A stretch of DNA of 64,000 bases from Patescibacteria group bacterium (GTDB taxonomy: Bacteria; Patescibacteriota; Minisyncoccia; Phycocordibacterales; CAIZLB01), in contig JAZKJG010000001.1 in NCBI GenBank assembly GCA_040384445.1, forward strand, positions 7,650 through 71,649, given 5' to 3'. The stretch's first letter is position 1. Each line of letters begins with the position of its first letter. The position numbers and the translations under genes are program-made. Below the pieces are notes generated by a model that saw only the letters and a program-made list of their open reading frames with translations, had not been told where the DNA came from and ran no database searches. This document shows, piece by piece, positions 7,575 to 32,719 of the stretch.

Positions 7575-10500
7575 ATGAAGTTTCCATTTCTCACAAAGAA
7601 ATTAAGTCCAATTGCATTCCTACTTATCATCGGAATGTTTTTTGGCGTATATGGAAACCTGTTTGCCGCTCCTGCAACAGGGTCACTTGGCTTCCAAGGA
7701 CAGTTGTTCAACAACGGAACTGCAGTGACTGGATCTGTAAATGCAACCTTTACATTTTACGATGCGGCAATCGGTGGAAGTGCTCAAGGGTCTACAATCT
7801 TAAAAACGGTAACTGTTGCAAACGGATATTTCGGAACTCAGTTCACAGAATCTGATACAACAGGAATTGATTTTAATCAAGAGCTGTTTATTGAAGTTGT
7901 GGTAAATGGAACAGCGCTTACTCCACGATCTTCAGTGAACTCTGTACCAGTTGCACGTAAGGCATTTGGAACATTTGCATATTCAAGTGCTCCTGCTGTT
8001 GGCGAAGCTGGATCACTGTACTTCAACACAACTTCTGACACTCTTCTTGTTTCTGATGGGACTTCATGGGTGCCAGCTGGAACTGCATCAAGTACTACCC
8101 AGTGGACTACAAACGGAAGTGATTTATATTTCACAACTGGAAATGTAGGAATCGGAACGTCAACACCTGCTGATAAGCTTTCTGTGGTTGGAACTGTTCG
8201 AGCAACATCATTTGTTGGAGACGGATCACAGTTGACTGGAATTCCTGTACTTTCAACATCAAGTGTTCGAAGTATGTTTTCATCAACTGCAACGGGGTTA
8301 ACATACACAGCTGGAACTGGAGTATTCTCACTTGCTGCAGGTTATGTGATTCCACTCACTGCCTCAACAACAGAATGGGCAGCTGCAGCCGCTTCTACAA
8401 CCGCGATGACTCCTGCATATTTCCGAGGACTTGTTTCAAACTCAGTTGCTGGATTAACATACAACCCTACAACTGGAGCAACAACTTTGACAGCTGGATA
8501 CAACATCCCACTTACTGCTTCAACAACTGAGTGGGCATCAGCTGCAGCTTCAACTTCTCCATCTGCAATCAGAGGTTTGTTTTCAAATGGAGCCACTGGA
8601 CTAACATACAACTCATCAACTGGAGCAACATCACTTGCTGCAGGTTATGTAATTCCTCTTTCCGCTTCAACTACAGAATGGGCAGCAGCTTCAGCGTCAA
8701 CTACAGCGATGACACCAAGTTACTTCCGAGGGTTACTTTCAGCAACAGGTCCAATCTCATACAACTCAAGTACTGGTGCATTTACATTCTCAACATCATC
8801 ACTTGGACTCACAACAACAAATATTGCTGAAGGTTCAAATCAATACTTCACTGACGCTCGAGCTCGATCTGCACTTTCAGAATCTGTAACTGGTCTTGAG
8901 TATGCAACAAGTACCGGAATTTTTTCTCTGACTTCTGGATATGTAATTCCAACAACTGCATCAACTTCAGAGTGGGCATCTGCTGCGGCATCAACTACAG
9001 CGATGACACCAAGTTACTTCCGAGGTCTTCTTTCAAACTCAGCAGCGGGTCTTGCATACAACTCATCAACTGGTGCAACAACTCTGACAGCTGGATACAA
9101 TATTCCGCTTACGGCTTCAACGACAGAGTGGTCACAAGCATACGCATCAACTGCTCCATCAGTAATTCGTGGACTATTCTCAAATTCAACAACAGGATTA
9201 ACATATAACTCTTCTACTGGAGCTACTTCACTCACTGCTGGATATGTAATCTCATTAACGGCTTCAACTACAGAATGGGCTACTGCATATGCTTCAACAA
9301 CAGCTCAAACTCCTGCATATTTCCGAGGTCTTCTTTCAAACTCAGTTGCAGGACTAACATACAACTCATCAACTGGTGCAACAACACTCACTGCTGGATA
9401 CAATATTCCGCTTAGTGCATCATCATCTGAATGGGCACTTGCATACGCGTCAACTTCTGCAATGACTCCCGTATATACTCGTGGTCTGTTCTCAAACTCA
9501 ACTACTGGACTTACATACAACTCTGGAACTGGTGCGACATCTTTGACAGCGGGATATGTAATCCCACTTGTCGCATCGACAACAGAATGGGCAGCATCAT
9601 CAGCTTCAACTTCTCCATCTGCAATCAGAGGTTTGTTTTCAAATGGAGCGACTGGGTTAACATACAACTCATCAACCGGAGCAACATCATTCACAGCCGG
9701 ATACTCAATCCCTCTCACGGCTTCATCAACTGAATGGTCATCATTCTTTAACACTCCATCAACTCGTATCACTGCTGGATCAAATTTATCATGGGCAGGA
9801 AATACTCTTAACGCTGCACTTTCATTCTCAACATCTTCAATTAACTATTTACGAAATGTAAGTGGTGGTCTTGAAACTGCAACGTCAACTGATTTCCTAC
9901 GAGCTGCATATTTTACAGCAACAGGAACAACTGCATCTACATTTACAAATGCATCTTCAACAAACTTAACTATCACAGGAAGTTTGTATAATTCATCTTT
10001 GTCAAATGGATGCCTTGAAGTGTCTGGAGGTTTGGTTACTTCAACAGGATCAAACTGTGGAGTTGGAAGTGGAGGAATTACATCTTTGAACGGACAAACA
10101 AACTCATCACAATCATTTGCAACTTCTTCAACTGCTGGAACATTTGGATTCGGCTTTTCTTCAGCAGGTGGAATTCATACACTAAATATTTCTCTTGCAT
10201 CAAGTACAAATACTGGGCTATTAAGTGCTTCAGATTGGACAACTTTTAATAACAAGCAAGGCGTGCTTTCATTTGGAAACTTAACATCAAGTGCAACTGG
10301 ATTGAGTGTGACTGGTGGAACTGGTGCTGTAGTTGGAGCTGGTGCAGCAGTAACATTAGCAGCTGGTTATAGTATTCCTCTTTCAGCCTCAACTACAGAA
10401 TGGTCAGTAGCATACGCGTCAACAACAGCTCTGACTCCTGCATATTTCCGAGCATTGTTGTCTAACTCTGCAACTGGATTAACATATAACTCTGGAACAG

Positions 10501-13500: not shown

Positions 13501-16500
13501 TTGCTTCAACAACACAATGGGCTACTGCATACGCTTCAACAACAGCACTTACTCCTGCATACTTCCGAGGGTTACTCTCTAACTCTGCAACTGGGTTAAC
13601 ATACAACTCAACAACAGGAGCAACATCATTCACTGCTGGATACTCAATACCTCTTACTGCATCATCAACTGAATGGTCATCATTCTTTAACACTCCATCA
13701 ACAAGAATTACAGCTGGATCAAATCTCACATGGTCTGGAAATACGTTGAATGCAAATATTTCAACATCATCAATCAACTACCTGCGACTGGTAAGTGGAG
13801 GTCTGGAAACTGCAACGTCAACAAACTTCTTGAGAGCTGCATATTTCACAGCGACAAGTACAACAGGAACGAGTACATTTGCAGGAGCTGTTGCAATCGG
13901 AACAACCACATCACCGTATAAACTTGCGGTTATTGGAGATTCGTATTTTTCAGGAAATATAAATGCATTTAGTTATGGTGCAGATGCGTATCATATTTTA
14001 GGTAGTAATCAGCACAATACAGTAACCATAAAGAAAGGTACTGGCTACGGTTCAGGTATTCATTTTGAAGATGGGTCTTCAAACCTATGGGATATATCAA
14101 CAGACAGTAGTAATAATTTTAGTATTTTTAACTACAGCCCTAGTGCAACAGCATTTGCAATAAATAAATCTAATAACTATGTAGGAATTGGAACTTCAAC
14201 TCCAATCTTCGCGTTGGATGTAGTTGGTGCAGCTGGGACTGTTATTCGAGCAAACAGTTCTGGCTCAACATATATTGATGCGAATACTGGAAGTGCTAGT
14301 TCAAATGGTGGATTTTCATTCAGTGCACTTGGAAGTAACAAATGGTTACTCTACAGAGATGGTGATGATGACTCTGTAAATTTTTTCAGTAATACTTTGG
14401 CTCAATCAGTACTAACTATGAATGCTGCTGGAAACGTAGGAATCGGAACAACAACCCCAACAGAAAAACTTTCTATAGCTGGAGCTCTTAATTTAACTGG
14501 CGCATTCAAATCAAACGGAAACGCAGGAACTCTAGGACAAGTATTACAAACAACTGGAACTGGAGTACAGTGGGTTGCAACATCATCACTTGGAATATCA
14601 GGCGGATCACTCTCAGGTGGAACTGATGGATATCTTGCACGATGGACAAGTGCGTCAACACTCAGTTCAGGACTATTCCTAGACAATGGAACAGTGGCAG
14701 GAATCAATGCGACATCTTCATCATATACATTTAATGTAAAAGGAAACTCAGGAGTAAATCCATTTAACGTCGCATCATCAACAGGTACGTCAATGTTTGC
14801 GATTGCAAATAACGGAAGAGTCACTGTGTACGGTGATATTGAAACAGATGATGATATATCAAACACCTTTCTTGGTGTCGGTGCCGGCAAGGGTTCAGTT
14901 CTAGATGGTGGTAGTAACACTGCAGTTGGTAGTGATGCTTTGTACACAAATACAGGAAGTTTTGGAGGTTACGGCTATGACAACACTGCGCTTGGTGCAT
15001 ATTCTCTCTACAGTCTCAATGCTGTAAGCGGAGGAAGTGGCTATGCAAACGTTGCTGTTGGTGTAAAGGCACTTTGGTTAAATGTACTTGGATCAGAAAA
15101 TGTTGCTTTGGGTACAAAAGCTCTTGAGGATATGACAGATGGCTATGGAAACATTGCGATCGGAAACAATGCTGGTAATAATCAAACACTTGGATCATAT
15201 AATATCGTTATCGGTAATGTTGTAAGTCTTGCAAGTACTACTGGAAGTAATCAACTTAATATCGGTAATCTTTTGTTTGGTACAGACTTGGGTACAGGAG
15301 GTGGAATTAGTACAGGAAATATTGGGATTGGGACAAATGCTCCTGCATACAGGCTCGACGTCAATGGTACAGGAAGATTTGTTAGAAGTAGTGTAGACGG
15401 TGCTTTGGTACTTGATAACTCGACGTCAGATGCTAATTCTATCCTGTTTCAAACTGCAGCATCAAATAAATGGTCTACTTACCTAAGTGGGAATGATTTA
15501 AGATTCTATGATTATAGTGGGAATGCTGACAGGCTTACTCTTAAATCAGGAGGTAATGTTGGAATTGGTACAACAACCCCAACAGAAAGGCTTTCAATCG
15601 CAGGTGCACTTAATCTCACAGGTGCATTTAAAGCAAATGGTGATGCAGGATCGGTAGGATATGTCATGATCTCACAAGGAACAAGTACTGCACCGATCTG
15701 GGTTGCAACTTCATCACTTGGATTAAGTGGTGGTGCAGGAGTTGGAACAATAAACTCTGGAACAGCTGGTCAAGTTGCGTTTTATGCAGGAAGTGGAACT
15801 ACAGTTTCTGGAACTTCAACACTATTCTTTAGTGCAGGAAATATTGGAATCGGAACTACAACTCCAGGATACAGACTTACTGTTGATGGAGATGTTTGGC
15901 TTGGAACCACAACACTTGCAAATGGTAATCTTGTTATAGGTAAGGATGGTTCTGTTACATCTCGAGGTCAAGCAGGATCAGTATTCTTAGGATTAGATGC
16001 AGGAAATGGGGCAACTTCTTCAAACAGCTCAAATTTCTTTGGTATATCTGCGGGTCAAAATGCAGCATATGCATCATACTCAAACTTCTTTGGTGAAGAA
16101 GCGGGATATGGTGCAACATATGCAACAAACTCAAACTTCTTCGGAGACTCTGCAGGATACGATGCAACAAACGCCGAAAGTGCAAACTTCTTTGGAAATG
16201 AAGCAGGGGTCAATGCAACTAACGCATTATTCTCAAACTTCTTTGGTGCAGCAGCAGGTTATGGTGCAACTGACGCAGCAAACTCAAACTTCTTTGGTAG
16301 ACAAGCCGGGTCTTATGCAACAGATGCATACAATGCTAACTTTTTTGGAGATTTCGCTGGTAGTGGTGCAACATATGCAACAAACTCAAACTTCTTCGGA
16401 GACTCTGCGGGATACGATGCAACATATGCTTACAATTCAAACTTCTTTGGTGAGCAAGCTGGATATGATGCAGAAAATGCATATGACTCAAACTTTCTTG

Positions 16501-21378: not shown

Positions 21379-22029
21379 ATGACACCCTTACTTAAAAAAA
21401 GCATTACTTCATTTGTTTCAATTACACTATGTACTTTGAGTATATTTATAATCGCAGAACCTGCGATTATAAGTGCGGTTACAGATGATGTAGTTGTCAA
21501 CTTGACTGTTGATTCTGGGATCGCGATTACATCTCCTACCGATGTAACACTTGGATCATCTAACATGGGTGTGTCAGTAAACAGTGCTATTGGAACAGCT
21601 GTGTGGAACGTTAAAACAAACGATCCGGATGGATATTTGTTAACTATTAAAAATGCCTCAACTTCTCCAGCACTAAAGGGAGCTGGTGGAATTGGAAATT
21701 TTGCTGATTACACAGAAGCAGTTGCGAACACTCCTGAACTCTGGGCAGTGGATGCATCAACATATCAGTTTGGTTACTCAGTGAGGGGAACAGATGTGAA
21801 CACTGGTACATATGGATCAGGTGCAGATTGCGGAACAGGTAACACACCAAGTGGAACACTTAAGTATCGACATGCTTCAACAACTGCCATCACAGCAGCT
21901 ACGCGCTCGTCTACAACCACTACGGCTGGAATTGATACAACTGCTTGTTTCGCCGCAGGGCAGAACGGTGTGTATGCAGCCGCAGGTTCATATAGTGCTA
22001 CAATTACAGCAACAGCTACAACACTCTAG
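21379..22029 (+). CDS. Secreted WxL-domain-like surface protein (216 aa)
   Basis: Signal peptide. N-terminal NLTVDSG...VTLG segment (like the LSLDSVP..FDFG block of WxL proteins). WNVKTNDPDGYLLTIK (like V.DNRG..GW.L.V). C-terminal GSYSATITATATTL (like the ..Y.G.ITW.L.. tail). Paralogue of 23075-23824. Confidence 0.6.
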   Translation: MTPLLKKSITSFVSITLCTLSIFIIAEPAIISAVTDDVVVNLTVDSGIAITSPTDVTLGSSNMGVSVNSAIGTAVWNVKTNDPDGYLLTIKNASTSPALKGAGGIGNFADYTEAVANTPELWAVDASTYQFGYSVRGTDVNTGTYGSGADCGTGNTPSGTLKYRHASTTAITAATRSSTTTTAGIDTTACFAAGQNGVYAAAGSYSATITATATTL

Positions 22030-23074: not shown

Positions 23075-23824
23075 ATGACACATCGTCATTTTCACAGTTT
23101 CATAATGATACTTCTGACTTTTGTTCCTATCTATGCAATAGGACAAGTGATGCAGAGTACTGTGTACAAGATTGAATCTGACAGTATTAATTTTGGAGGA
23201 GGAAATTCATCAAGTACAAGCTATAGTCTAGAAGATACCTTGGGTGAAATTGCTTCAGGGTATAGTTCGAGTTCTTCTTATGTGATGAATGCAGGCTATC
23301 AACACATGAATGAGTCCACATACATAACTCTAAGTGCTTTGAGCGATTTAAATCTTGGAACAATTGGAGGGTTCGTAGGAGGTGTTGCAACAGGAACTCA
23401 TTCGTGGGTGGTTACTACAAATAACCCTGAAGGATACACACTCACCGCCAAAGCATCAACAGCGCCAGCTCTCACATCTGGTGCGGCATCTTTTGGTGAC
23501 TACGTTCCCGCTGGACCTGACCCTGATCTAAACTTTACAGTTTCTGCAACGAGTTCAAAGTTCGGATTTTCACCTGAAGGTGTGGATGTTGTGCAAAGAT
23601 TTAAGGATAATGGATCGTCATGTAATGCAGGAACATCAAACACAACCGATGCATGTTGGGATGGATTTTCAACTACAACAAAATCTGTATCATTAAGAAA
23701 TTCAAGTAATTTACCATCAGGTTCAACAACGACTATAAAATACCGTGCAGAAATCGGAGCCTCATATTTTCAGGATGCAGGTGATTATTCTGCAATTATA
23801 ACAATTACCGCGCTTGCACTATAA
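23075..23824 (+). CDS. Secreted WxL-domain-like surface protein, second paralogue (249 aa)
   Basis: Signal peptide. ITLSALSDLNLGTIGG. WVVTTNNPEGYTLTAK. C-terminal GDYSAIITITALAL. Alignable with 21379-22029 over the full length. Confidence 0.6.
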   Translation: MTHRHFHSFIMILLTFVPIYAIGQVMQSTVYKIESDSINFGGGNSSSTSYSLEDTLGEIASGYSSSSSYVMNAGYQHMNESTYITLSALSDLNLGTIGGFVGGVATGTHSWVVTTNNPEGYTLTAKASTAPALTSGAASFGDYVPAGPDPDLNFTVSATSSKFGFSPEGVDVVQRFKDNGSSCNAGTSNTTDACWDGFSTTTKSVSLRNSSNLPSGSTTTIKYRAEIGASYFQDAGDYSAIITITALAL

Positions 23825-25182
23825 TGAAAAAAAATGTATTCACGCATGTAAAAATCTTAACTTTAACTAGTATGTGTGTTATGGGTTTAGGTTTGCATGC
23901 GGATATAGATGTTAATTTAATGGTCGAAGGTTGCAATAATGATACTGTGTGTGAAATTCAGTACGGTGAAAGTTTTAATTCATGTCCAAACGATTGTGCC
24001 TATGTTGCGCCAACATCAACTCCTCCAACGCCAGTCACTCCACTGCCATCTGCTGATTCTTCTGGAATACTATTTGGAACTAAGGGTGACACAACATTGC
24101 GATTTGAAAATGTTCATATTACGCACGGACTTGATTCTGCTGTTTTAACATGGAATACGACACGTCCCACTAAGTCATCAATCAGTTGGGGACTGACAGA
24201 TGATTACGCTGAAGGTGTGCTGTCGGAAATTGAATTCATCAAAACACATTCATCAAAAATTAATAATATTATTCCAGGAAAAATATATGTATTTAAAATT
24301 ACGGCAGTAGATGCAGACGGAGTTTATGTAACATATTCTGGAAACTTTTTACTTAAAAAAGAAACCCCTGTACTCTTGCCACTAAACGTTGCTGATTTTA
24401 GAATTTTTACTGCTCCAACAGGAATTGGACTCAGGTGGAATAATGTAAGTGATTTAGAATATGAATATGTACGAATTATTAGGTCCACAACAGGATATCC
24501 TCATAATCCATCAGATGGAAAAGTTGTATATGAGGGTAAGGGACAAAGCTTTGTAGATATAAATGTGCTTGAGGGGGTAAGATATTATTATGCTGCGTTT
24601 GTTCGAAATCAATCCTCACAATATTCTTCAGGAGTTTTAAGGACAGTAATAAAATATAAAAACGGAATCACTCCACTTGATTCTGATGTTGGTTTTCCAT
24701 TTGAAAATGATAATCAGATAGATACTGCAATTCCGTCAAATGTATTCCAACTCACACATCAAGATATAGATTTTATTCAAAATAATACAAAGATCTCTTT
24801 CATATCTTCAGTCGTCCCTGTAAATTCAAGTATTCCGCTAATTGTAAGTGTTCCTAAATTTAATAATTCAGTAGTGTTTTTGACAATGACCTCAAGTGAT
24901 CAGACATATTTATTTGCATACAATGTTAGCGATGATAGATTAGAGGTGCAAATTCCATCCTTGCACACAGATAATTCTATTGAATATTTTCTGTATATAT
25001 TAAATGATGGTACTTTCTATAAGCTTAATCAAGGAACATTCGACCTGTCTCCATCTGTCGATTATACCGACACGAGAAATGGCAAAAAAAGAGCTCAAAA
25101 CCTTAAAGATTTTCTTATAATTATACCTATTGCTGTTTTTTTGATTGCGATTAAATTGATTTATAGAATTTTTAAAAAATAA
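23824..25182 (+). CDS. Surface protein with Cys-rich N-terminal module, Pro/Thr linker, two FN3-like domains and C-terminal TM anchor (452 aa)
   Basis: Signal peptide. CNNDTVCEIQYGESFNSCPNDC. PTSTPPTPVTPLP linker. Two ~90-aa segments with FN3-like W..T and Y.Y.A patterns. Terminal FLIIIPIAVFLIAIKLIYRIFKK. Confidence 0.6.
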   Translation: MKKNVFTHVKILTLTSMCVMGLGLHADIDVNLMVEGCNNDTVCEIQYGESFNSCPNDCAYVAPTSTPPTPVTPLPSADSSGILFGTKGDTTLRFENVHITHGLDSAVLTWNTTRPTKSSISWGLTDDYAEGVLSEIEFIKTHSSKINNIIPGKIYVFKITAVDADGVYVTYSGNFLLKKETPVLLPLNVADFRIFTAPTGIGLRWNNVSDLEYEYVRIIRSTTGYPHNPSDGKVVYEGKGQSFVDINVLEGVRYYYAAFVRNQSSQYSSGVLRTVIKYKNGITPLDSDVGFPFENDNQIDTAIPSNVFQLTHQDIDFIQNNTKISFISSVVPVNSSIPLIVSVPKFNNSVVFLTMTSSDQTYLFAYNVSDDRLEVQIPSLHTDNSIEYFLYILNDGTFYKLNQGTFDLSPSVDYTDTRNGKKRAQNLKDFLIIIPIAVFLIAIKLIYRIFKK

Positions 25183-25191: not shown

Positions 25192-25226
25192 ACGAAATAA
25201 TTGTTGATAATTGTTTCGTTTTTTCG
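25192..25226 (+). terminator. Intrinsic terminator (12-bp hairpin acgaaataattg/taattgtttcgt + tttttcg)
   Basis: Stem with two G-U pairs, 4-nt loop, followed by T-run. Sits between the cassette and giant gene 2. Confidence 0.5.
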
Positions 25227-25270
25227 TAATTAAAATCTACTGTCTATGATATAATATAACTATATTTCGT

Positions 25271-28200
25271 ATGGGTACATTTATCATAAAGCACGTTCAG
25301 AAAAACTGTAAAAAGTTTTTAAAAACTTTCCTTATCTTAGGATTGTTTTTAATGTGTTTTACTGCATATAGTGTGGTATATGCTGCGTTTAATCCTCAGA
25401 TAAATTACCAGGGAAAACTTACAGATGCTTCAGGTAACCCTGTTGCAAATGGAACATACAATATTGAATTTAAATTGTATACAGTTTCAAGTGGTGGAAG
25501 TCCTATTTGGACAGAAACAAGAACTGGAGGAGATAAGGTTACAATTACAAATGGACTGTTCAGTGTGATGCTTGGAAGTGTAAATTCAATTTCAGGAATT
25601 GATTTTAATCAACCATTATATCTAGGGGTAAATATTGGAGGAACAGGTTCACCATCTTATGACGGTGAAATGACTCCTCGAAAAACTTTCGGTACTGTAC
25701 CTGCATCATTTGTTGCACAGACACTTGAAGGATATCGAGCGATTCAATTTTTGCGAAGTGATGTTATAAATTCAACAAGTACAGGAGCTACGTTTTTAAA
25801 ACTTGAGCAAGCTGGAGCTGGAGCGATTGCAGAATTTATTGGAAATACTTCATCAACAATTCTTGGAATATATTCTGCAGGAGGTGGAGCTGTTGGAATT
25901 GGAACAACAACTCCAACAGAGAAGCTTACTATTGCAAATGGAAATTTGTTACTACAAGGAGAATACGGTGTGAAATGGACAGGAGGTTCTCAACTGTACG
26001 AACAAACTGTTGCAGGGGCTGGAGTTGATAGAATGATTTATCGACCTAATGGAGATCGATTTGATGTTATCGATGAAGCCGGTTCAACGTTCATGGCATC
26101 ATTCAATGTAAGTAATATACAGTTGTTTACTGCAGGTGTTTCAAGATTGTTTATTGATTCTTCAGGAAACCTTGGTATTGGAACTACGACCCAAACAGAA
26201 AAACTCACAATCGCAGGAAACATCAACCTCACCGGTGCATTCAAATCAAACGGAAACGCCGGAACACTGGGACAAGTATTACAAACAACAGGAACTGGGG
26301 TGCAATGGGTTGCAACATCAACTCTTGGAATATCAGGCGGATCACTCTCAGGTGGAACTAATGGGTATCTATCACGATGGACAAGTTCCTCAACTTTGAG
26401 TACGGGATTATTTCTAGACAATGGAACTGTAGCGGGAATTAACGCAACATCTTCATCATACACATTTAATGTAAAAGGATCAGGAGCGCTCGGTGCCTTC
26501 AATGTTGCGTCGTCGACTGGTACTTCGCTCCTCAACGTGAGGGCGAATGGGTATGTAGGAATCGGAACAAACGCTGCTGCATATCAGCTGGATGTAAAAG
26601 CTGATACTTCTGGCATTACTAACGTACTGAACCTAAGTAGTTCTATGACAGGGGCTGGAGATGGTACAGGAATTCTATTCTCTAGTTCTGAGGGAAGTCT
26701 ACATGCGCGTATACGAACCAGTGCCTATACAGGTACAACAGCAGGTTTAATATTCGAAGTAACCCCTTCAACTGATACCTTAACTGAAGCACTGCGTATC
26801 ACAGATACTGGAAATGTAGGAATCGGAACAACAACTCCATCTGCAAAACTAGATGTATGGGGAAATTTGAAAGTAGGAACATCATCAACACCAATTTTGT
26901 TTGCAAACACAGCAACAGGAAAAGTTGGTATTGGAACAGTATCGCCAGCGCATACATTAGATTTGGGAGGAGTAAGTCCGACTTTAAATGTTGGGTTATA
27001 CGGAGGGGGAGGTGCTGCAACTATTCGTATGTTGGGGGAAGCATTGTTTAGTTTCTCTGGTGGAACAGTCGGATCAACTATTGCAATAGGCTCTGCTGAT
27101 ACTTCTGTTGATTTTGACCTTGCGTTCCATGCAGGAGGATCGAACAGAATGTATATAGATGGGGCGACTGGTAATGTTGGAATCGGAACAACAACATCAG
27201 TAGAACTTCTCACAATTGCAGGAAATCTCAACCTCACAGGTGCACTCAAATCAAACGGAAATGCAGGAACTCTCGGACAAATATTACAAACAACAGGAAC
27301 CGGAGTACAATGGGTTGCTACATCATCATTAGGTATTTCAGGTGGAGGAGGATCGGGAACTGTAAACTCTGGACTTCTTGGTCAAGTTGCTTTTTATAGT
27401 GCAAATGGAACAGCGGTTTCAGGAACTTCAACATTGTTTATCACTGGTGAAAAGATTGGAGTTGGAACAACGACTGTAACAGAAAAATTAGTAGTCGATG
27501 GAAATGCTCTTATTACAGGATTACTAAAAGGTGGTACTTCTGCAAATATTAATTTAAATGGACTGTCTAATAACGGTGTAGATTTTAACTATTTAAATGG
27601 AGGTATATTTCGTACTGCAGAAACAAGTATTGCAGGAACAAATGATATATTCTTCCAAGGAGTTCCTGCTACTACTGCTGGATATACCTATCTTGAAGCA
27701 TGGCAATCTGCTGGTTTGATTTTAGGAACGGGAAATTCAACTGCAATTATTTTCAAACCAAACAGAACTGAATACATGCGACTTACTGGAACTGGTGATT
27801 TGGGAATTGGGACATCTACTCCAATTGCAAAACTTGCAGTTACAGGAACAGGAACAACAACAGGTAAAGCTTTCGTTGTTGCAAACTCAAACAATACTCC
27901 GATATTCACAATGCTTGATAATGGAAATATTGGAAATGGTGTAGGCGCTGACCCTGTATCATGGGATTTCCATATACAAAGAACTGGAAATTTGTACGCA
28001 ACCCTACAAAGTTCAACAGGACATTCTACCCTTCGTCTTGTGAGTGCCACAGGGTTGAGCCCCACTCTTCATTTTGGTGACGGGTCAAGTAATCGATGGG
28101 ACGTTGTTTCAAATGGTTCAAACTCAGGAAACCTTGAGTTTAATTCATATTCTGTAGGAAATGTAATGAGTCTAGGTTTGACAACTGGACTTGTAGGAAT

Positions 28201-31200
28201 CGGAACATCTACTCCATCCGCAAAACTGGATGTATGGGGAAATTTGAAGGTAGGTACATCATCAACTCCAACATTGTTTGTAAACACTGCAACAGGAAAA
28301 GTTGGTATTGGATCTTCAACTCCGGTAAGTAAACTTTCTGTTGTGGCATCATCAGGGGTAGCTGTGACATTTGAAAATACAGCAACATGGTCAGGTTCAG
28401 AGTTTGCACTTGATGTAAAAGGTTACTCAAACTTAAGTGGACTCAGGATTAATGCAGCTGACGGAATTAATGCACTCTACAACGGGGCAAATACAACTCT
28501 GGGATTTACAAATAATCAAGGGTATCCAATTACGTTTTCATCATGGAATGGCACAGTAACTGAATTGATGAGAATTGATACAACAAGTGGGAAGATTGGA
28601 ATTGGAACTTCAACAGCAACGGAAATTCTTTCTGTCGCAGGAAATATCAACCTCACCGGTTCATTCAAATCTAACGGAAACGCAGGAACTCTTGGACAAG
28701 TGTTACAAACAACTGGAACAGGAGTACAGTGGGTTGCAACATCATCACTTGGAATAACGGGTGGAGGTATATCAGGAACTGTAAACTCAGGGCTGCTCGG
28801 TCAAGTTGCTTTTTATGATGCCAACGGAACAGTGGTTTCAGGAACTTCAACATTATTTATTACTGGAGAAAAACTTGGTATAGGAACTACAACTCCTGGA
28901 TACAAACTGACTGTTGACGGAGATGTGTGGCTTGGAACTACGACTCTTGCAAATGGTAATCTTGTTATTGGTAAGGATGGCTCTGTTGCATCACGAGGCA
29001 TGCTCCACTCTATTTTCCTTGGGAAAGATTCTGGAACATCTACAGCTGCTACTGGTAATTCAAACTTCTTCGGAAATGGTGCAGGACAATATGCAACAAA
29101 CGCAGATAACTCAAACTTCTTTGGATCTGGAGCAGGAGAATCTGCTACTGAAGCAGCAGGATCAAACTTCTTTGGGGCAGTGGCAGGAAGTGGAGCAACA
29201 TATGCAGCAGGATCAAACTTCTTCGGAGCTGGAGCTGGATTCTCTGCAACAGAAGCTGCATACTCAAACTTCTTCGGAGAAAATACAGGAAGTTTTGCGA
29301 CATATGCTGACAACTCAAACTTCTTTGGTGCCGCTGCAGGAAACAATGCAACAAATGCATCATCATCAAACTTCTTTGGTGCTGCCGCTGGAGACAGTGC
29401 TACAAATGCTTTCAATTCAAACTTCTTTGGAAGATTAGCTGGAGCCGGCGCAGCTAATGCAGCAAACTCAAACTTTGTGGGTTATAACGCTGGAAATAAT
29501 TCAACCAACGCTGCACTCTCAAACTTCATTGGATACAATGCTGGTAACGATGCAACAAACGCATCGTCATCAAACTTCATCGGATTCCTTGCTGGAATGC
29601 AGGCGACAAATGCATCATCATCAAACATTTTTGGATCATATGCAGGTTACCAATCAACGAATGCTGCCTACTCAAACTTCATCGGATATGGTGCAGGACA
29701 GTACGCAACAAATGCACGTAACTCTAACTTCCTAGGACTAGGAGCTGGAGGAGGAGCTGCAGGTGCATATGATTCAAACTTCTTTGGTGTGAACGCAGGA
29801 TCAAATACAAATGCATTTAGATCAAACTTTATGGGATATGAAGCAGGAAGTACTGCAACAAACGCAACCTACTCAAACTTCACTGGATATTATGCTGGAT
29901 ATGGTGCAACCAATGCAAATGACTCTAACTTTATCGGTAGAAATGCGGGATACAATGCAACAAACGCATCAACAACTAACTTCATAGGATATAATGCAGG
30001 ACAAAACGCAACGAATGCAAACTTATCAAACTATATTGGGTACTATGCAGGAAATGGAGCAACAAACGCTTCAAACGTGAATGCACTTGGTGCATATGCA
30101 GGTCAAAATGCAACGAATGCCTCAAACTCATTCTTCGTAGGATATCAAGCAGGAAATAATGCAACAAATGCAAACATGGTAACTGCTATTGGATATCTTG
30201 CAGGATCTGGTGCATCTGATGCCATATTCTCAAACTTCTTTGGATATGGAGCCGGACAAAACGCAACAAACACATCAAACTCAAACTTCTTTGGAGCTAG
30301 TGCAGGGTCAGGAGCTTCACAAGTTTCAAACTCAAACTTCTTTGGGGTAAGTGCAGGTAGTGCTGCAGTAGGTGCAAGTGCATCAAACTTCTTTGGATCT
30401 GGAGCAGGACAAAACGCAACTAACGCAGTATCTTCTAACTTCTTTGGATTTTCAACAGGATCTGGTGCAACCAATGCAATATTCTCTAACTTCTTCGGAC
30501 AATATGCAGGTCAAAATGCAACGAATGCTTCGTACTCAAATTTCTTCGGATTCAATTCGGGATATGGAGCAACTACTGCCCAGAACTCAACATTTATGGG
30601 TCCACAAGCGGGATATCAGGCTGCTAATGCTAATAATGCAATATTCCTAGGGCAAAACTCAGGATACAATGATACGGTAAATAACTCAACCAACTGGAAG
30701 TCTTCAATCCTTATTGGAGATTACACATCAACTGGAGGTTTCTCAAACTCAATCGCTATCGGTCAAGGTACAAAAAACAGTGCAACAGAGCAATTAAACT
30801 TAGGGGGCTTGATTTATGGACTGGGAATACGAGCAACAACAACACCAACTGCCACTCCTGTTTCTGGAGGTCTTGTAGGTATTGGAACTTCAACTCCAGG
30901 AACTATACTTACAATTGTTGCAGATGCTTCTGTTGATAGTGGTTTGTCGGTTATCGGTAACAATAATGGTTTCTTCGAAGGTAATATTCAAAACTTAAGT
31001 TCAGGAGTAAATGCCTCATCTGATTGGGTGGCAACAGCAAATAACGGAGATGATACCATTCATTACATTGATATGGGAATCAACGGTAGTGGAGGAGGAG
31101 CTGCACCATTTACAGGTGCTAACCAGGCGTACCTGTATTCTGTAAGTGATACACTCAACATTGGAGCATTAGGAACCGGAAATACTGTTAACTTCTATAC

Positions 31201-32719
31201 AACTGGTGGAACTTCTCCAGTAGAGAGAATGCGGATTGATAGTTTTGGAAATATTGGAATTGGAACCACAACTGTTCCTGCTTCACTATCATTGGCGAGC
31301 GCAACAACAACTGGTGATGCAATCTCAGTTCATGGACCATTAGGAACGAAACTTTTCAGTGTAAAACTTATTGCTCAAAACTTCGGAGGGCTTGTTGAAT
31401 CAGGAGCATTTATGGGTAACAACTCATTTTTTGCAGAAGAGTTTAACGTAGATACTGCGCTTATCAGTGCTGACAGTGCAGCGATTGGAGATAACGGAGG
31501 TATGTATTTTGATACAACATCTGTTACGTCAACATATTCAGCTACAGACTTCATTGGTGGATACGGAAGACTTGTGGCAAGTACCACAACGGGTGTTGGT
31601 GGATTGATTGGTTTTGGAAATGCTCAGAACAACCTTAGTTTAATGTTCTCTAAAGCAAACTTACCTGTTGTACAGATGAAAGTGAGAACAAATATTAACA
31701 ACACAACAAACGATACTTTTTGGGGGCTTATGGACCAGGCTACTGCTCCAACTGCGAACGACACGGCTCCAGCAAACGGTATATATTTCTGGAATAACAA
31801 CGCAGCAGGAGGATGGCAAGGGGTTGTGCGAAGTGGAGGTGCAAACGTAGGTACAGTAACTTGTCCAGGTGCTATCAGTACTACACAGTTTGCAATAGGA
31901 AGAATTCAGGTAGAAAGTACTTCAACCGTACGATTTTTGATTGATAACGATATTACAACTGACGGAGTTAATATGGTGGATTGTGGAACTGTGACAGGGG
32001 CAAACCCTTCTGCAGCTCTTGGAATCGCACTGTATAATATTCATACAGAAAACACTGCGACAGCAAGAAATATTGATATTGATTATATGCGAGTGTGGCA
32101 AGATGATGCGTCAACATCCTCAGATGAATCACTTGCAGGAGATGTTTCTTCAACTCCAGAAAAACTTACACAGTTCCTAGATAATGGATATCTTGTAGAC
32201 GGACTTGAATTAATGGGCAGAATTCAATCTGAAGATCAAAAAAATGTACTGGAAATTATTACGGATAAGGTGAAGAAAAATATGGAAATAGTTTCGGAAT
32301 TTGTGGCGCTTCGAGTTGTGGCAATGCGAGGATATTTTGAGGAGGTATTTACAAAGAAAATCCACACTGAAAAAATGTGTCTGAAGAAATCAGATGGTTC
32401 TGAGTATTGTGTAAATGGAGATGAGTTGCAATCAATCATGGAAGGAAAGGGTGTGGTGGTATCACCAACAACGAACCAGCCTGAAAATGTAGCCCCTACC
32501 TCTACGTCAACTTCAGATTCAGTGAGTGGTGGGGCAGCAACAAATACTGCTAACGAAGATCCTGATAGTTCCTCACCAACGGTGCAAGAGACTGAACAGC
32601 TCCCTCCTCCATCTGAAACTGTTCAGGAGCCTGCGTTTGAGCCCGAACCAGCACCAGCATCAACACCTGAACCTACTCCAACTTCGACACCAGAAGCTGC
32701 CCCTGCTCCAACAGAGTAG
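25271..32719 (+). CDS. Giant secreted repeat protein 2 (2482 aa), paralogous modules to giant gene 1, distinct C-terminal domain, Pro/Thr/Glu-rich tail
   Basis: Uninterrupted 7.4-kb ORF. Signal peptide/TM. The N-terminal domain is alignable with gene 1 (IDFNQ.L...V..G......PR..FGT). Segments 26190-26510 and 30700-30880 are ~90% identical at nt level to 14440-14790 and 19560-19740. ~32 copies of the 17-aa repeat. No SD.RLK-type chaperone block. Confidence 0.9.
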   Translation: MGTFIIKHVQKNCKKFLKTFLILGLFLMCFTAYSVVYAAFNPQINYQGKLTDASGNPVANGTYNIEFKLYTVSSGGSPIWTETRTGGDKVTITNGLFSVMLGSVNSISGIDFNQPLYLGVNIGGTGSPSYDGEMTPRKTFGTVPASFVAQTLEGYRAIQFLRSDVINSTSTGATFLKLEQAGAGAIAEFIGNTSSTILGIYSAGGGAVGIGTTTPTEKLTIANGNLLLQGEYGVKWTGGSQLYEQTVAGAGVDRMIYRPNGDRFDVIDEAGSTFMASFNVSNIQLFTAGVSRLFIDSSGNLGIGTTTQTEKLTIAGNINLTGAFKSNGNAGTLGQVLQTTGTGVQWVATSTLGISGGSLSGGTNGYLSRWTSSSTLSTGLFLDNGTVAGINATSSSYTFNVKGSGALGAFNVASSTGTSLLNVRANGYVGIGTNAAAYQLDVKADTSGITNVLNLSSSMTGAGDGTGILFSSSEGSLHARIRTSAYTGTTAGLIFEVTPSTDTLTEALRITDTGNVGIGTTTPSAKLDVWGNLKVGTSSTPILFANTATGKVGIGTVSPAHTLDLGGVSPTLNVGLYGGGGAATIRMLGEALFSFSGGTVGSTIAIGSADTSVDFDLAFHAGGSNRMYIDGATGNVGIGTTTSVELLTIAGNLNLTGALKSNGNAGTLGQILQTTGTGVQWVATSSLGISGGGGSGTVNSGLLGQVAFYSANGTAVSGTSTLFITGEKIGVGTTTVTEKLVVDGNALITGLLKGGTSANINLNGLSNNGVDFNYLNGGIFRTAETSIAGTNDIFFQGVPATTAGYTYLEAWQSAGLILGTGNSTAIIFKPNRTEYMRLTGTGDLGIGTSTPIAKLAVTGTGTTTGKAFVVANSNNTPIFTMLDNGNIGNGVGADPVSWDFHIQRTGNLYATLQSSTGHSTLRLVSATGLSPTLHFGDGSSNRWDVVSNGSNSGNLEFNSYSVGNVMSLGLTTGLVGIGTSTPSAKLDVWGNLKVGTSSTPTLFVNTATGKVGIGSSTPVSKLSVVASSGVAVTFENTATWSGSEFALDVKGYSNLSGLRINAADGINALYNGANTTLGFTNNQGYPITFSSWNGTVTELMRIDTTSGKIGIGTSTATEILSVAGNINLTGSFKSNGNAGTLGQVLQTTGTGVQWVATSSLGITGGGISGTVNSGLLGQVAFYDANGTVVSGTSTLFITGEKLGIGTTTPGYKLTVDGDVWLGTTTLANGNLVIGKDGSVASRGMLHSIFLGKDSGTSTAATGNSNFFGNGAGQYATNADNSNFFGSGAGESATEAAGSNFFGAVAGSGATYAAGSNFFGAGAGFSATEAAYSNFFGENTGSFATYADNSNFFGAAAGNNATNASSSNFFGAAAGDSATNAFNSNFFGRLAGAGAANAANSNFVGYNAGNNSTNAALSNFIGYNAGNDATNASSSNFIGFLAGMQATNASSSNIFGSYAGYQSTNAAYSNFIGYGAGQYATNARNSNFLGLGAGGGAAGAYDSNFFGVNAGSNTNAFRSNFMGYEAGSTATNATYSNFTGYYAGYGATNANDSNFIGRNAGYNATNASTTNFIGYNAGQNATNANLSNYIGYYAGNGATNASNVNALGAYAGQNATNASNSFFVGYQAGNNATNANMVTAIGYLAGSGASDAIFSNFFGYGAGQNATNTSNSNFFGASAGSGASQVSNSNFFGVSAGSAAVGASASNFFGSGAGQNATNAVSSNFFGFSTGSGATNAIFSNFFGQYAGQNATNASYSNFFGFNSGYGATTAQNSTFMGPQAGYQAANANNAIFLGQNSGYNDTVNNSTNWKSSILIGDYTSTGGFSNSIAIGQGTKNSATEQLNLGGLIYGLGIRATTTPTATPVSGGLVGIGTSTPGTILTIVADASVDSGLSVIGNNNGFFEGNIQNLSSGVNASSDWVATANNGDDTIHYIDMGINGSGGGAAPFTGANQAYLYSVSDTLNIGALGTGNTVNFYTTGGTSPVERMRIDSFGNIGIGTTTVPASLSLASATTTGDAISVHGPLGTKLFSVKLIAQNFGGLVESGAFMGNNSFFAEEFNVDTALISADSAAIGDNGGMYFDTTSVTSTYSATDFIGGYGRLVASTTTGVGGLIGFGNAQNNLSLMFSKANLPVVQMKVRTNINNTTNDTFWGLMDQATAPTANDTAPANGIYFWNNNAAGGWQGVVRSGGANVGTVTCPGAISTTQFAIGRIQVESTSTVRFLIDNDITTDGVNMVDCGTVTGANPSAALGIALYNIHTENTATARNIDIDYMRVWQDDASTSSDESLAGDVSSTPEKLTQFLDNGYLVDGLELMGRIQSEDQKNVLEIITDKVKKNMEIVSEFVALRVVAMRGYFEEVFTKKIHTEKMCLKKSDGSEYCVNGDELQSIMEGKGVVVSPTTNQPENVAPTSTSTSDSVSGGAATNTANEDPDSSSPTVQETEQLPPPSETVQEPAFEPEPAPASTPEPTPTSTPEAAPAPTE
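29060..30670 (+). repeat. Array of ~32 17-aa (51-bp) SNFFG..AG..ATNA repeats inside giant gene 2
   Basis: Same periodic motif as 16030-19520. Confidence 0.9.

What the first reader, a model, noticed from the sequence alone, without database searches (positions are those of the whole stretch)
7575..32719. Cell-surface locus: two giant fibre-like proteins bracket a WxL/DUF916-like cassette
Two giant secreted proteins (4577 and 2482 aa) share interchangeable sequence modules. They flank a four-gene cassette (WxL-like, DUF916-like, WxL-like, FN3 anchored protein). Together this looks like one adhesin or surface-fibre apparatus. The giants carry phage-tail-fibre hallmarks: VGIGTxTP collar-like motifs, beta-roll repeats and, in the larger one, a C-terminal autoproteolytic chaperone domain. 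The cassette resembles a Firmicute csc-type peptidoglycan-docking complex. I do not know this combination as a described system. It may be a mechanism for non-covalently docking very large trimeric fibres on the wall of a monoderm cell, perhaps for host or episymbiont attachment.
Basis: partly seen in the sequence, partly recalled or inferred. Interest (0 to 1): 0.85.

Follow-up and report, generated by a model that had tools for sequence, protein, structure and literature searches.

The report
CPR pilus-like cassette carrying tail-fibre adhesins
In an uncultured ultra-small (CPR/Patescibacteria) bacterium, a conserved four-gene pilus-type assembly cassette is permanently linked to a hypervariable phage-tail-fibre-like surface protein; it is a new variant of the recently described "Pam" pilus, and its chaperone is also related to the WxL-interacting protein of Gram-positive bacteria.

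Summary
All six ORFs are at the stated coordinates. The giants share 50-57% identical modules and 12-13 GIGT motifs. Giant A has a Peptidase_S74 domain, and both giants hit phage tail-fibre families. RTX-type beta-roll repeats are absent.

- c2 is a remote homolog of the Firmicute WxL-interacting protein (DUF916). Its model's best PDB match is E. faecium WxLIP, and a broad family profile hits WxLIP at E 1e-11. Chaperone-usher chaperones are the next-best fold matches.
- c4 is an FnIII protein with a C-terminal membrane helix, like PamR.

The cassette is therefore a Paceibacteria-type relative of the CPR "Pam" pilus (2026 preprint). It lacks the two-domain major pilins.

Across 67 species-level loci the order c1-c2-c3-c4 is fixed. 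In 35 of 38 informative loci a fibre gene follows. Only its ~105-residue N-terminal module is conserved, and giant A carries a diverged copy. An upstream giant is rare.

Verdict: a new variant of a known kind. Physical docking of the fibre is inferred, not shown.

The parts
7575..21308 (+). Giant A (4577 aa): signal peptide, diverged N-terminal module, long Ser/Thr/Ala/Gly-rich fibre with 12 GIGT motifs, C-terminal Peptidase_S74 domain, Cys pair and Pro/Thr-rich tail. A genome-specific second fibre gene.
   Evidence: ORF; composition and motifs; Pfam S74; PHROG 'long tail fiber distal subunit' E 5e-12; an upstream giant is seen in only about 4 of 37 relatives.
7686..7973 (+). Giant A residues 38-133: diverged copy of the conserved fibre N-terminal module.
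   Evidence: The module HMM aligns positions 7-105 at 31 bits, E 1e-11, with filters off. BLAST of A 5-204 against B 4-221 gives 30% identity, E 4.5e-8.
15162..19772 (+). Giant A residues 2530-4066: shaft modules shared with giant B.
   Evidence: BLASTP gives 50% identity over 923 aa and 57% over 709 aa.
20691..20861 (+). Giant A residues 4373-4429: Peptidase_S74 intramolecular chaperone domain starting 'SDATLK'.
   Evidence: Pfam PF13884 E 9.1e-17, 61.5 bits; sequence.
21379..22029 (+). c1 (216 aa): signal peptide, N-terminal alternating-hydrophobic strand 'VVVNLTVDSG', and a single pilin-type beta-sandwich ending in a G-x-Y-x-A-x-I-T-x-T-A-x-x-L C-terminus. Inferred polymerising subunit. Present in 1-3 copies in relatives.
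   Evidence: Paralog of c3 (36% identity, E 1e-17; hhalign 99.9%); conserved N-terminal strand; copy number.
22078..23046 (+). c2 (322 aa): signal peptide, two Ig-like beta-sandwich domains and a C-terminal TM helix (297-321). A WxLIP/DUF916-family, PapD-like membrane-anchored chaperone.
   Evidence: AF2 model pLDDT 84. Foldseek top hits are WxLIP 9i25/9i1y at E 1.4e-12, followed by CfaA, CsuC, Caf1M and DraB. Profile A4 hits WxLIP at E 1e-11, and PF06030 is hit by 24 of 41 divergent members. The family spans 6258 clusters.
22498..22623 (+). c2 residues 141-182: long beta-hairpin with a disordered acidic tip and the invariant 'SRIGS' strand. Candidate donor (G1-like) strand.
   Evidence: Secondary structure and low-pLDDT stretch 157-167; invariant S172 R173 I174 G175 S176; aligned to WxLIP 123-150. 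The donor role is inferred.
23075..23824 (+). c3 (249 aa): signal peptide, conserved N-terminal extension of about 55 aa (three S-x-x-Y-x-[ILM] repeats, residues 26-79), then a pilin-type beta-sandwich (80-249). Distant PamT homolog.
23824..25182 (+). c4 (452 aa): signal peptide, N-terminal strand 'IDVNLMVEG', 4-Cys motif, Pro/Thr linker, FnIII domains and a C-terminal TM. PamR-like membrane tether. Its start overlaps the c3 stop (TAATG).
   Evidence: fn3 in 19 of 25 family members; profile against FnIII structures E 6e-17. N-terminal motif shared with c1 (hhalign 14 columns, P 2.5e-5). c3 and c4 overlap in 27 of 53 loci.
25271..32719 (+). Giant B (2482 aa): signal peptide, conserved N-terminal module, hypervariable tail-fibre-like shaft with 13 GIGT motifs, C-terminal Cys pair and Pro/Thr-rich tail, and no detectable S74. 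The conserved fifth gene of the operon.
   Evidence: ORF. PHROG tail fibre E 7.9e-24 and 2.7e-17. A downstream homolog is present in 35 of 38 loci.
25391..25705 (+). Giant B residues 41-145: the only conserved part of the fibre family (about 66% identity across 26 homologs). Inferred docking or adaptor module.
   Evidence: Conservation profile; module HMM E 1.9e-59; unrelated to c1-c4 by hhalign.
28115..30916 (+). Giant B residues 949-1882: shaft modules shared with giant A.

Best explanation
The window comes from a Patescibacteria (Paceibacteria-type CPR) chromosome. The locus is a conserved operon, c1-c2-c3-c4-fibre. It encodes a Sec-exported, membrane-anchored surface structure assembled by chaperone-assisted strand complementation, and that structure displays a long phage-tail-fibre-like adhesin.

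Proposed mechanism. c2 stays in the membrane through its C-terminal helix. It caps the incomplete Ig-fold subunits c1 and c3 with a strand from its long domain-1 hairpin. This is what chaperone-usher chaperones do, what the Pam chaperones are predicted to do, and what WxLIP is predicted to do for WxL. c1 (1-3 gene copies) polymerises through its N-terminal strand. c4 carries the same N-terminal strand motif plus FnIII domains and a TM helix, so it would end the chain and tether it to the membrane. c3 is PamT-like and would act as the distal or adaptor subunit. The fibre has a signal peptide, a conserved ~105-aa N-terminal module, a hypervariable shaft and tip, and in giant A an S74 domain, a family that assists trimer folding and then removes itself. 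The fibre would be coupled to this base through its conserved N-terminal module, exposing a rapidly evolving binding tip, plausibly for host-cell attachment. Giant A is a second, diverged fibre gene peculiar to this genome.

Shown here: gene order and its conservation, the homologies, the folds, and the pattern of module conservation. Inferred: donor-strand exchange, the order of subunits, fibre docking, trimerisation, and host binding.
For: - Source and context: locus tags V4686_00085 and V4686_00090 of a Patescibacteria MAG. Housekeeping genes flank the locus (rpoB, rpoC, RNase J, prfB, pyrG, gyrA).
- c2: two beta-sandwich domains plus a TM helix, pLDDT 84. The top fold match is WxLIP at E 1.4e-12, followed by CU chaperones at E 3e-9 to 1e-7. 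Sequence-level link to WxLIP at E 1e-11, and PF06030 in 24 of 41 divergent members. An invariant 'SRIGS' strand follows a disordered hairpin tip.
- c1 is a paralog of c3.
- c1 and c4 share the post-signal-peptide motif [VI]xV[TN]LxV (hhalign P 2.5e-5).
- c4: FnIII plus TM, matching the described PamR architecture.
- Operon: median intergenic gaps are 16, 7 and -1 nt, and c3/c4 overlap in 27 of 53 loci.
- Fibre linkage: 35 of 38 loci have a fibre gene after c4. Only residues ~41-145 are conserved (66% against 10-20% elsewhere), and complete lengths range from 500 to 2165 aa. Giant A carries the module too.
- More divergent CPR loci (L065, L068-L071) keep two tandem c2 paralogs followed by a fibre with the same module.
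- The Pam preprint reports a tail-fibre-like protein at the centre of pam neighbourhoods.
- S74 and tail-fibre PHROG hits.
Against: - No complex prediction or experiment links the fibre module to any cassette protein. The module shows no profile similarity to pilin domains, so the mode of docking is unknown.
- The link to Pam rests on one sub-threshold model (37.6 bits against a cutoff of 240). The c2 and c4 families hit no Pam-named NCBIfam model, and no Pam sequences were available for direct comparison.
- The two-domain major pilins PamA and PamB, which define the solved Pam filament, are absent.
- Three of 38 loci lack the adjacent fibre.
- Relatives have a ~120-aa HTH-TM gene between c4 and the fibre, which suggests the fibre may be separately regulated.
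- The fibres could anchor themselves through an uncleaved signal anchor.
Confidence: 0.6

Rival explanations
1. The cassette is a WxL/Csc-type complex that docks non-covalently on peptidoglycan. c1 and c3 bind the cell wall like WxL domains. c2 (WxLIP/CscA-like) stabilises them by inserting a strand. The giants are the large cargo proteins held on the wall.
For: c2 is the closest structural and sequence relative of E. faecium WxLIP and has the same architecture of DUF916-like domain, second Ig domain and TM helix (PMC10599100). The gene content parallels csc clusters (small secreted proteins, WxLIP, an anchored protein, a large protein); this parallel is from my own knowledge. The C-terminal strand of c1/c3, 'YSAxITxTA', resembles the WxL 'YxGxLxWxL' pattern.
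Confidence: 0.15
2. The cassette and the giants are functionally independent. The cassette builds a plain Pam-like pilus. The giants are self-anchored surface adhesins that merely share a 'surface-protein island' next to the rpoBC/str region.
For: The fibre module has no detectable similarity to any cassette protein. A separate HTH-TM gene and a gap of about 520 bp lie between c4 and the fibre in 31 relatives. The Nomurabacteria loci L003 and L004, and L029 and L053, have the cassette without an adjacent fibre. Each giant has its own signal peptide or possible signal anchor.
Against: Adjacency holds in 35 of 38 species-level loci at 44-59% c2 identity. It also holds in much more divergent loci (25-30% c2 identity) where the rest of the neighbourhood differs. 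Only the N-terminal ~105 aa of the fibre is under strong constraint, as expected for an interface with conserved partners. The Pam preprint finds the same association independently.
Confidence: 0.2
3. The giants are prophage or phage-remnant tail-fibre genes, and the locus is a degraded mobile element.
For: Giant A has Peptidase_S74 and both giants hit tail-fibre PHROGs. A phage-type contig, L073, encodes a 953-aa protein sharing shaft modules at 57% identity in the best segment.
Against: The window has no other phage genes near the locus. The flanks are rpoB, rpoC, RNase J, prfB and pyrG, and no tRNA genes were found. Both giants have secretion signals. The locus sits at the same chromosomal position (near rpoBC, rpsL-rpsG-fusA or prfB-pyrG) in many species. 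The fibre is always linked to the cellular cassette.
Confidence: 0.03

Closest known systems
Pam pilus operon of CPR bacteria (Ca. Mycosynbacter amalyticus; Troman et al., bioRxiv 10.64898/2026.03.03.709456)
   Same: Found in a CPR host. All components carry Sec signal peptides. The subunits have an Ig-like pilin fold and c3 is a PamT homolog of the same size (25.6 kDa). The chaperone is a two-domain PapD-like protein kept in the membrane by a C-terminal TM helix. There is an FnIII protein with a C-terminal TM helix and an N-terminal strand (PamR-like). A tail-fibre-like protein sits in the neighbourhood. There is no usher and no transenvelope machine.
   Different: The two-domain major pilins (PamA 55 kDa, PamB 39 kDa) are absent, and c1 and c3 are single-domain. 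There is one chaperone instead of two (PamC and PamD). c4 is larger than PamR (452 aa against 32.8 kDa). Only PamT is linked at sequence level, far below the equivalog cutoff. [quoted passage not shown] The chromosomal setting is the rpoBC/str region, whereas the preprint describes an ATP synthase neighbourhood. The fibre gene is an obligatory operon member with a conserved N-terminal module, a feature the preprint does not describe.
WxL / Csc clusters of Lactobacillales and Bacillales (WxL proteins plus WxLIP = DUF916-DUF3324-TM; PMC10599100; PDB 9i25, 9i1y)
   Same: c2 is a remote homolog of WxLIP and has the same architecture of two Ig-like domains plus a TM helix. A hairpin in domain 1 is predicted to complete the partner's beta-sandwich. 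The cluster combines small secreted beta-sandwich proteins, an anchored protein and a very large surface protein. The host is monoderm.
   Different: There is no WxL domain (no Pfam hit, no dual W-x-L motif). The partner subunits have a CU-pilin fold and PamT homology. The large protein has no C-terminal WxL domain, and its conserved part is N-terminal. The window c2 itself is below the Pfam threshold. Peptidoglycan binding is untested.
Chaperone-usher pili (Pap/Fim, CFA/I, archaic Csu)
   Same: c2 has the fold of the chaperone (CfaA, CsuC, Caf1M, DraB) and c3 has the fold of the pilin (CsuA/B, FimH pilin domain, CupE, FimA, PapK). The subunits have N-terminal alternating-hydrophobic strands. 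Their conserved C-terminal strand has Gly at -14 and an aromatic residue; the comparison with CU pilin C-termini is from memory.
   Different: There is no outer membrane and no usher. The chaperone is membrane-tethered. There is no sequence-level homology (the A4 profile finds no CU chaperone in the PDB). The terminator is an FnIII membrane protein.
Phage tail fibres and tailspikes with a C-terminal intramolecular chaperone (Peptidase_S74: K1F endosialidase, T5 L-shaped tail fibre)
   Same: Giant A has an S74 domain with the 'SDxxxK' start. Both giants have tail-fibre PHROG modules and the layout of a conserved N-terminal attachment module with a variable distal part. At least one phage contig shares shaft modules.
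   Different: The genes are cellular and chromosomal, carry secretion signals, are far longer (2482-4577 aa), and are linked to a pilus-type cassette rather than a baseplate. Giant B lacks S74.

Membership tests
WxL/Csc cluster | WxLIP component: DUF916 (PF06030 WxLIP_PGBD), a second Ig-like domain (DUF3324) and a C-terminal TM helix | tested here: met
   The architecture is present in the AF2 model. The best PDB fold match is WxLIP 9i25_C at E 1.4e-12. Broad family profile A4 hits EfmWxLIP1 at E 1e-11 over the DUF916 region, and 24 of 41 divergent members hit PF06030. Caveat: the window protein and its close relatives are below Pfam detection.
WxL/Csc cluster | WxL domain (Pfam WxL) with two Trp-x-Leu motifs in the small secreted proteins | tested here: not met
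   c1 and c3 give no Pfam hit and none of 120 c3 homologs has one. Profile A5 finds no WxL chain in the PDB at E<=10. The only motifs are W-N-V and W-A-V in c1 and W-V-V in c3, and the C-terminal strand has no Trp. The WxL chain is absent from the top 50-60 fold hits.
WxL/Csc cluster | Large protein with a C-terminal WxL domain | tested here: not met
   The giants have no Pfam WxL hit. Their C-termini are S74 or a Cys pair followed by a Pro/Thr-rich tail. The conserved module is N-terminal.
WxL/Csc cluster | Non-covalent peptidoglycan binding | not testable with these tools
   Requires biochemistry.
CPR Pam pilus | PamT tip pilin (NCBIfam NF058579, equivalog cutoff 240 bits) | tested here: inconclusive
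   c3 scores 37.6 bits, E 1.6e-9. All 43 family members match, best E 7e-15. It is the same length as PamT (profile 241 positions; PamT 25.6 kDa). This makes c3 a distant homolog but not an equivalog.
CPR Pam pilus | PapD/FimC-like chaperone retained in the membrane by a C-terminal TM helix (PamC/PamD) | tested here: met
   The c2 fold matches CU chaperones at E 3e-9 to 1e-7 with TM-score (normalised by target length) of about 0.5, and the model has a C-terminal helix at 297-321. Direct comparison with PamC/D sequences was not possible.
CPR Pam pilus | Two-domain major pilins (nine-strand NTD, linker donor strand, truncated Ig CTD; PamA/PamB) | tested here: not met
   c1 (216 aa) and c3 (249 aa) each contain one beta-sandwich. 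No other secreted pilin-like ORF lies in the operon.
CPR Pam pilus | PamR: FnIII protein with an N-terminal strand and a C-terminal TM helix | tested here: met
   The c4 family has fn3 in 19 of 25 members and its profile hits FnIII structures at E 6e-17. The C-terminal TM segment and the N-terminal strand motif shared with c1 are visible in the sequence. This is an architectural match only. No sequence comparison with PamR was possible, and c4 is larger.
CPR Pam pilus | Tail-fibre-like protein co-localised with the operon | tested here: met
   Giant A and giant B in the window; 35 of 38 related loci; preprint statement.
CPR Pam pilus | Filament formed by donor-strand exchange | not testable with these tools
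   Structure-prediction jobs were exhausted, and complex prediction or cryo-EM is needed. The only indirect support is from conserved N-terminal strands.
Chaperone-usher pili | Outer-membrane usher | tested here: not met
   No usher-like Pfam hit on any locus protein.
Chaperone-usher pili | Incomplete Ig-fold pilin and two-domain chaperone | tested here: met
Peptidase_S74 fibre/tailspike proteins | C-terminal S74 intramolecular chaperone domain | tested here: met
   Giant A: 61.5 bits against a cutoff of 22, residues 4373-4429, 'SDATLK' start. Giant B: not met (no hit; only 23% identity to A's C-terminus). Autoproteolysis itself is not testable here.
RTX / beta-roll proteins | Tandem GGxGxD nonapeptide repeats | tested here: not met
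   2 motifs in 4577 aa and 0 in 2482 aa.

The most novel reading that the evidence does not exclude
The CPR Pam pilus, this Paceibacteria cassette and the Firmicute WxL/WxLIP clusters are branches of one ancient monoderm assembly system. In it a membrane-tethered DUF916-type chaperone completes incomplete Ig-fold subunits by strand donation. In Paceibacteria this system has been specialised into a short, membrane-tethered socket that holds interchangeable, hypervariable phage-tail-fibre-like adhesins through a conserved ~105-residue N-terminal adaptor. That would make it a cellular counterpart of a phage baseplate-fibre joint, used by episymbionts to switch host specificity.
Probability: 0.3. 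Interest if true: 0.8.

Novelty: new variant of a known kind. Interest (0 to 1): 0.6.

Why it matters
CPR bacteria make up a large share of bacterial diversity and live attached to other cells, yet how most of them recognise and hold a host is unknown.

This locus defines a very widespread cassette. Its chaperone family spans thousands of sequence clusters, and the cassette is a conserved single-copy operon next to core genes in Paceibacteria. It is locked to a fast-evolving tail-fibre-like protein, which makes it a strong candidate for the host-attachment and specificity organelle of this class.

The locus also supplies a link that the searchable literature does not contain. The chaperone-like component is homologous to DUF916/WxLIP of lactobacilli, enterococci and Listeria. 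WxL clusters could therefore be reinterpreted as relatives of a donor-strand assembly system, and the Pam pilus would gain relatives outside the CPR.

The conserved adaptor with a variable fibre gives a concrete, testable handle: complex prediction, pull-downs, or cryo-ET of enrichment cultures.

Tried and rejected
- Pfam and NCBIfam on the window cassette proteins gave nothing except the sub-threshold PamT hit.
- The single-family profile A1 against the PDB was not significant for WxLIP (E 0.14). The link became significant only after divergent paralogs were added (A4).
- NCBIfam scans of the c2 and c4 families found no Pam-named model. Ten proteins from the divergent loci returned only one weak PamT hit.
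- Searching with the 120-aa fibre module in the 5.8-billion-protein set returned only contig-truncated fragments, so it gave no architecture information.
- The top 150 of the exhaustive representative search reached only E 1e-52, so the distant tail (possible Firmicute members) was not visible.
- hhalign of the fibre module against c1, c2, c3 and c4 was negative, so the idea that the fibre carries a cryptic pilin domain was rejected.
- PDB sequence searches with the whole giants gave no hits.
- Promoter and terminator scans were not above shuffle expectation.
- Self-BLAST found no internal repeats in the giants at E below 1e-10.
- The Pam preprint's supplement holds no sequences, so PamC, PamD and PamR could not be compared directly.
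- RTX beta-roll, Hep_Hag/YadA and prophage readings were rejected.
Full report
**1. What is in the sequence**

Six + strand genes lie in a row: giant A 7575-21308 (4577 aa), c1 21379-22029 (216 aa), c2 22078-23046 (322 aa), c3 23075-23824 (249 aa), c4 23824-25182 (452 aa) and giant B 25271-32719 (2482 aa). The gaps between them are 70, 48, 28, -1 and 88 nt.

The surroundings are ordinary chromosome. rpoB and rpoC lie upstream. RNase J, prfB, CTP synthase and, further on, gyrA lie downstream. There are no tRNA genes and nothing phage-like nearby. Exact matches in the protein collection identify the source as a 'Patescibacteria group bacterium' MAG, locus tags V4686_00085 and V4686_00090.

**2. 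The giants**

- Both are Ser/Thr/Ala/Gly/Asn-rich with hydrophobic signal-like N-termini.
- They share long modules: A 2530-3412 matches B 949-1842 at 50% identity, and A 3375-4066 matches B 1225-1882 at 57%.
- The motif GIG[TS] ('nVGIGTtTPsakL') occurs 12 and 13 times.
- Giant A has a clear Peptidase_S74 domain at 4373-4429 (E 9e-17), starting 'SDATLK'. A Cys pair and a Pro/Thr-rich tail follow it. Giant B has no detectable S74 and only 23% identity to A's C-terminus.
- PHROGs supports tail-fibre ancestry. B hits 'tail fiber protein' at E 8e-24 and 3e-17. A hits 'long tail fiber protein distal subunit' at E 5e-12.
- RTX-type beta-roll motifs are essentially absent. There are no Hep_Hag/YadA hits and no PDB sequence relatives.

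**3. The cassette**

Pfam sees nothing in the window's c1-c3 and only a sub-threshold fn3 in c4. The identifications below come from structure prediction, family profiles and synteny.

*c2.*
- The AlphaFold model built on 43 homologs has pLDDT 84. It shows a signal helix, two beta-sandwich domains and a C-terminal TM helix at 297-321.
- Its best PDB match is the E. faecium WxL-interacting protein (9i25_C 'bound to long WxL', and 9i1y) at E 1.4e-12. Classical chaperone-usher chaperones follow directly: CfaA, CsuC, Caf1M, DraB, CupB2 and EcpB.
- At sequence level the close family alone is not significant against WxLIP (E 0.14).
- A profile that includes divergent paralogs hits EfmWxLIP1 at E 1e-11 over the DUF916 domain. 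In addition, 24 of 41 divergent members individually hit Pfam PF06030 WxLIP_PGBD, the former DUF916.
- The family is very large: 6258 clusters at 50% identity with E<=1e-3.
- A long hairpin (141-182) has a disordered acidic tip followed by the invariant 'SRIGS' strand. By alignment it lies where WxLIP has the hairpin that is predicted to insert into WxL and complete its sandwich (PMC10599100). The equivalence to that hairpin is my inference.

*c3 and c1.*
- c3 gives a sub-threshold hit to NCBIfam NF058579 'CPR-type pilus protein PamT' (E 1.6e-9, 37.6 bits against a cutoff of 240). All 43 family members give this hit, best E 7e-15, so it is a family-wide homology signal and not a one-off.
- In the c3 model, residues 80-249 form a confident beta-sandwich. 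Residues 23-79 are unstructured although they are the most conserved part of the family. They contain three S-x-x-Y-x-[ILM] repeats.
- c1 is a paralog of c3 without the extension (36% identity, E 1e-17; hhalign 99.9%).
- A broad c1/c3 profile finds no WxL chain in the PDB. The dual W-x-L motif is absent. None of 120 c3 homologs carries a Pfam domain.
- The 'WxL-like' label is therefore not supported.

*c4.* The family contains FnIII: 19 of 25 members hit fn3, and the profile hits titin/neogenin FnIII at E 6e-17. There is also an N-terminal 4-Cys motif and a C-terminal TM segment.

*Shared N-terminal strand.* Directly after their signal peptides, c1 (consensus TDxVxVTLxVDSG) and c4 (GIxVNLxVxG) carry the same alternating-hydrophobic strand motif. 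It is the only region where their profiles match (14 columns, P 2.5e-5).

**4. The relevant literature**

A 2026 preprint (bioRxiv 10.64898/2026.03.03.709456) solved the 'Pam' pili of the CPR bacterium Ca. Mycosynbacter amalyticus. According to that paper:
- PamA and PamB are two-domain pilins joined by donor-strand exchange.
- PamC and PamD are PapD/FimC-like chaperones with a C-terminal TM helix.
- PamT is a single-domain tip pilin.
- PamR is an RbmA-like FnIII protein with an N-terminal strand and a C-terminal TM helix, proposed to terminate the filament and tether it.
- A 'tail fibre-like protein' is central in the neighbourhood network.
- Homologs were found only in CPR, mainly Saccharimonadia and Microgenomatia.

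The preprint does not mention WxL or DUF916. No paper in the library links WxL to donor-strand systems.

The window's cassette matches this architecture component by component (c3/PamT, c2/PamC-D, c4/PamR, giants/tail-fibre-like protein). It lacks the two-domain major pilins and has a single chaperone.

**5. Synteny**

A scan of one genome per species with the c2 profile returned 67 loci, essentially all Patescibacteria: Paceibacteria, Nomurabacteria, Minisyncoccia, Taylorbacteria and Moranbacteria.

- In every core locus the order is c1 (1-3 copies), c2, c3, c4, with median gaps of 16, 7 and -1 nt. c3 and c4 overlap in 27 of 53 loci.
- Of 38 loci with c4 and more than 1.5 kb of downstream sequence, 35 carry a large gene whose N-terminus matches giant B (E 1e-33 to 1e-68). 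Complete lengths are 500-2165 aa, and truncated ones exceed 2460 aa.
- Conservation is confined to residues ~41-145 (about 66% identity). It then collapses to 10-20% apart from the GIGT motifs.
- Giant A residues 38-133 are a diverged copy of this module (31 bits, E 1e-11).
- In 31 relatives a ~120-aa HTH-plus-TM gene sits between c4 and the fibre. It is missing from the window.
- A large upstream surface gene, the giant A position, is rare: about 4 of 37 loci. Most large upstream ORFs are EF-G.
- More divergent loci (L065, L068-L071; c2 identity 25-30%) have secreted proteins of about 350 aa with the PamT-like 'SNYxL...GxGG' N-terminus, a second class of about 340-360 aa, and two tandem c2 paralogs. 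A fibre with the same 'GINKxINFQGK' module follows them. The chaperone-fibre linkage therefore extends well beyond the close family.

**6. Mechanism**

The best-supported reading is a Sec-exported, usher-less, membrane-tethered structure assembled by donor-strand complementation and exchange.
- c2 acts as the membrane-bound chaperone.
- c1 is the repeating subunit.
- c3 is the PamT-like distal or adaptor subunit.
- c4 terminates the chain and tethers it to the membrane.
- The fibre, trimerised with the help of S74 in giant A, is the variable binding element. It is joined to the base through its conserved N-terminal module.

The layout of a conserved N-terminal joint with a hypervariable distal part is that of phage tail fibres. 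One phage-type contig shares shaft modules, which suggests module exchange with phages.

The evidence is uneven.
- Shown here: gene order and its conservation, folds, homologies and the conservation pattern.
- Inferred: strand exchange, subunit order, fibre docking, trimerisation and host binding.
- Weakest step: docking of the fibre. The module has no profile similarity to any cassette protein, and no complex prediction could be run.

**7. Rivals**

- A true WxL/Csc peptidoglycan-docking complex has c2 in its favour, but it fails on the WxL domain itself.
- Independent neighbours is disfavoured by the 35-of-38 linkage and the module conservation. It is not excluded.
- A prophage origin is contradicted by the genomic context.

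**8. Novelty and score**

The kind of system is known, as the Pam pilus (2026 preprint) and the WxL/WxLIP clusters. This locus is a distinct Paceibacteria variant. Two points are not in the searchable literature:
- its chaperone family is homologous to DUF916/WxLIP, bridging a CPR system and a Firmicute system;
- the tail-fibre-like gene is an integral, conserved operon member defined by a ~105-aa N-terminal module.

I rate it 'new variant of a known kind', interest 0.6.

Noticed in passing
L058:13793-14149, L001:13287-13646 and 29 other related loci; absent from the window (c4-to-giant-B gap 25183-25270 is only 88 nt): A conserved protein of about 120 aa lies between c4 and the fibre gene in 31 relatives. 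It has an N-terminal HTH-like segment ('SEAAKMSGYTQDYLGYLIRTGEMKGKKLGRNW') followed by a TM segment, so it may be a membrane-tethered regulator of the fibre gene. tblastn finds no copy anywhere in the 64-kb window.
   Followed up: partly
window 7078-7530 (+), 150 aa, immediately upstream of giant A: A small protein with an N-terminal TM segment and no Pfam or NCBIfam hit. Homologs recur beside the system in other genomes: upstream of c1 in L045 and L061, and downstream of the fibre in L065, L069 and L071. It may be an accessory component.
   Followed up: partly
L073 (IMGVR_UViG_3300006805_002151) 7788-10649: A viral-collection contig with no cassette genes and an amidase-like ORF nearby encodes a 953-aa protein sharing shaft modules with giant B residues 206-676 (57% identity in the best segment). 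This suggests module exchange between phage tail fibres and these cellular fibres.
   Followed up: partly
L065, L068, L069, L070, L071 (about 5-12 kb in each locus): Divergent CPR loci (Moranbacteria and others) have two tandem c2-like chaperone paralogs (about 350 and 315 aa). Before them lie secreted proteins of about 340-360 aa with 'YIRLDR'-type N-termini and proteins of about 350 aa with a PamT-like 'SNYxL..GFGSGG' N-terminus. After them lies a fibre with the same N-terminal module. This is probably closer to the canonical pam layout. L065 also has type IV pilin-like genes upstream.
   Followed up: partly
window 34737-35612 (+): The release-factor ORF is only 291 aa, and its PCRF match starts at profile position 92. 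The N-terminal part may be encoded upstream of a programmed frameshift, as in prfB, or it may be truly shortened. The homolog in L001 is 301 aa.
   Followed up: no
window 36400-38412 (+): The CTP synthase is 670 aa, with about 120 extra N-terminal residues before the CTP_synth_N domain. The homolog in L001 is 558 aa.
   Followed up: no
window 40102-41010 (-): A further FnIII-like secreted protein (Pur_ac_phosph_N and fn3_SORL1 hits) lies downstream of the locus on the opposite strand. Its relation to c4 was not examined.
   Followed up: no
window 6276-6911 (+), 211 aa: An ORF between rpoC and the locus has only a very weak Tox-HNH-HHH hit (E 0.1). No homologs were seen next to the cassette in relatives.
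   Followed up: no
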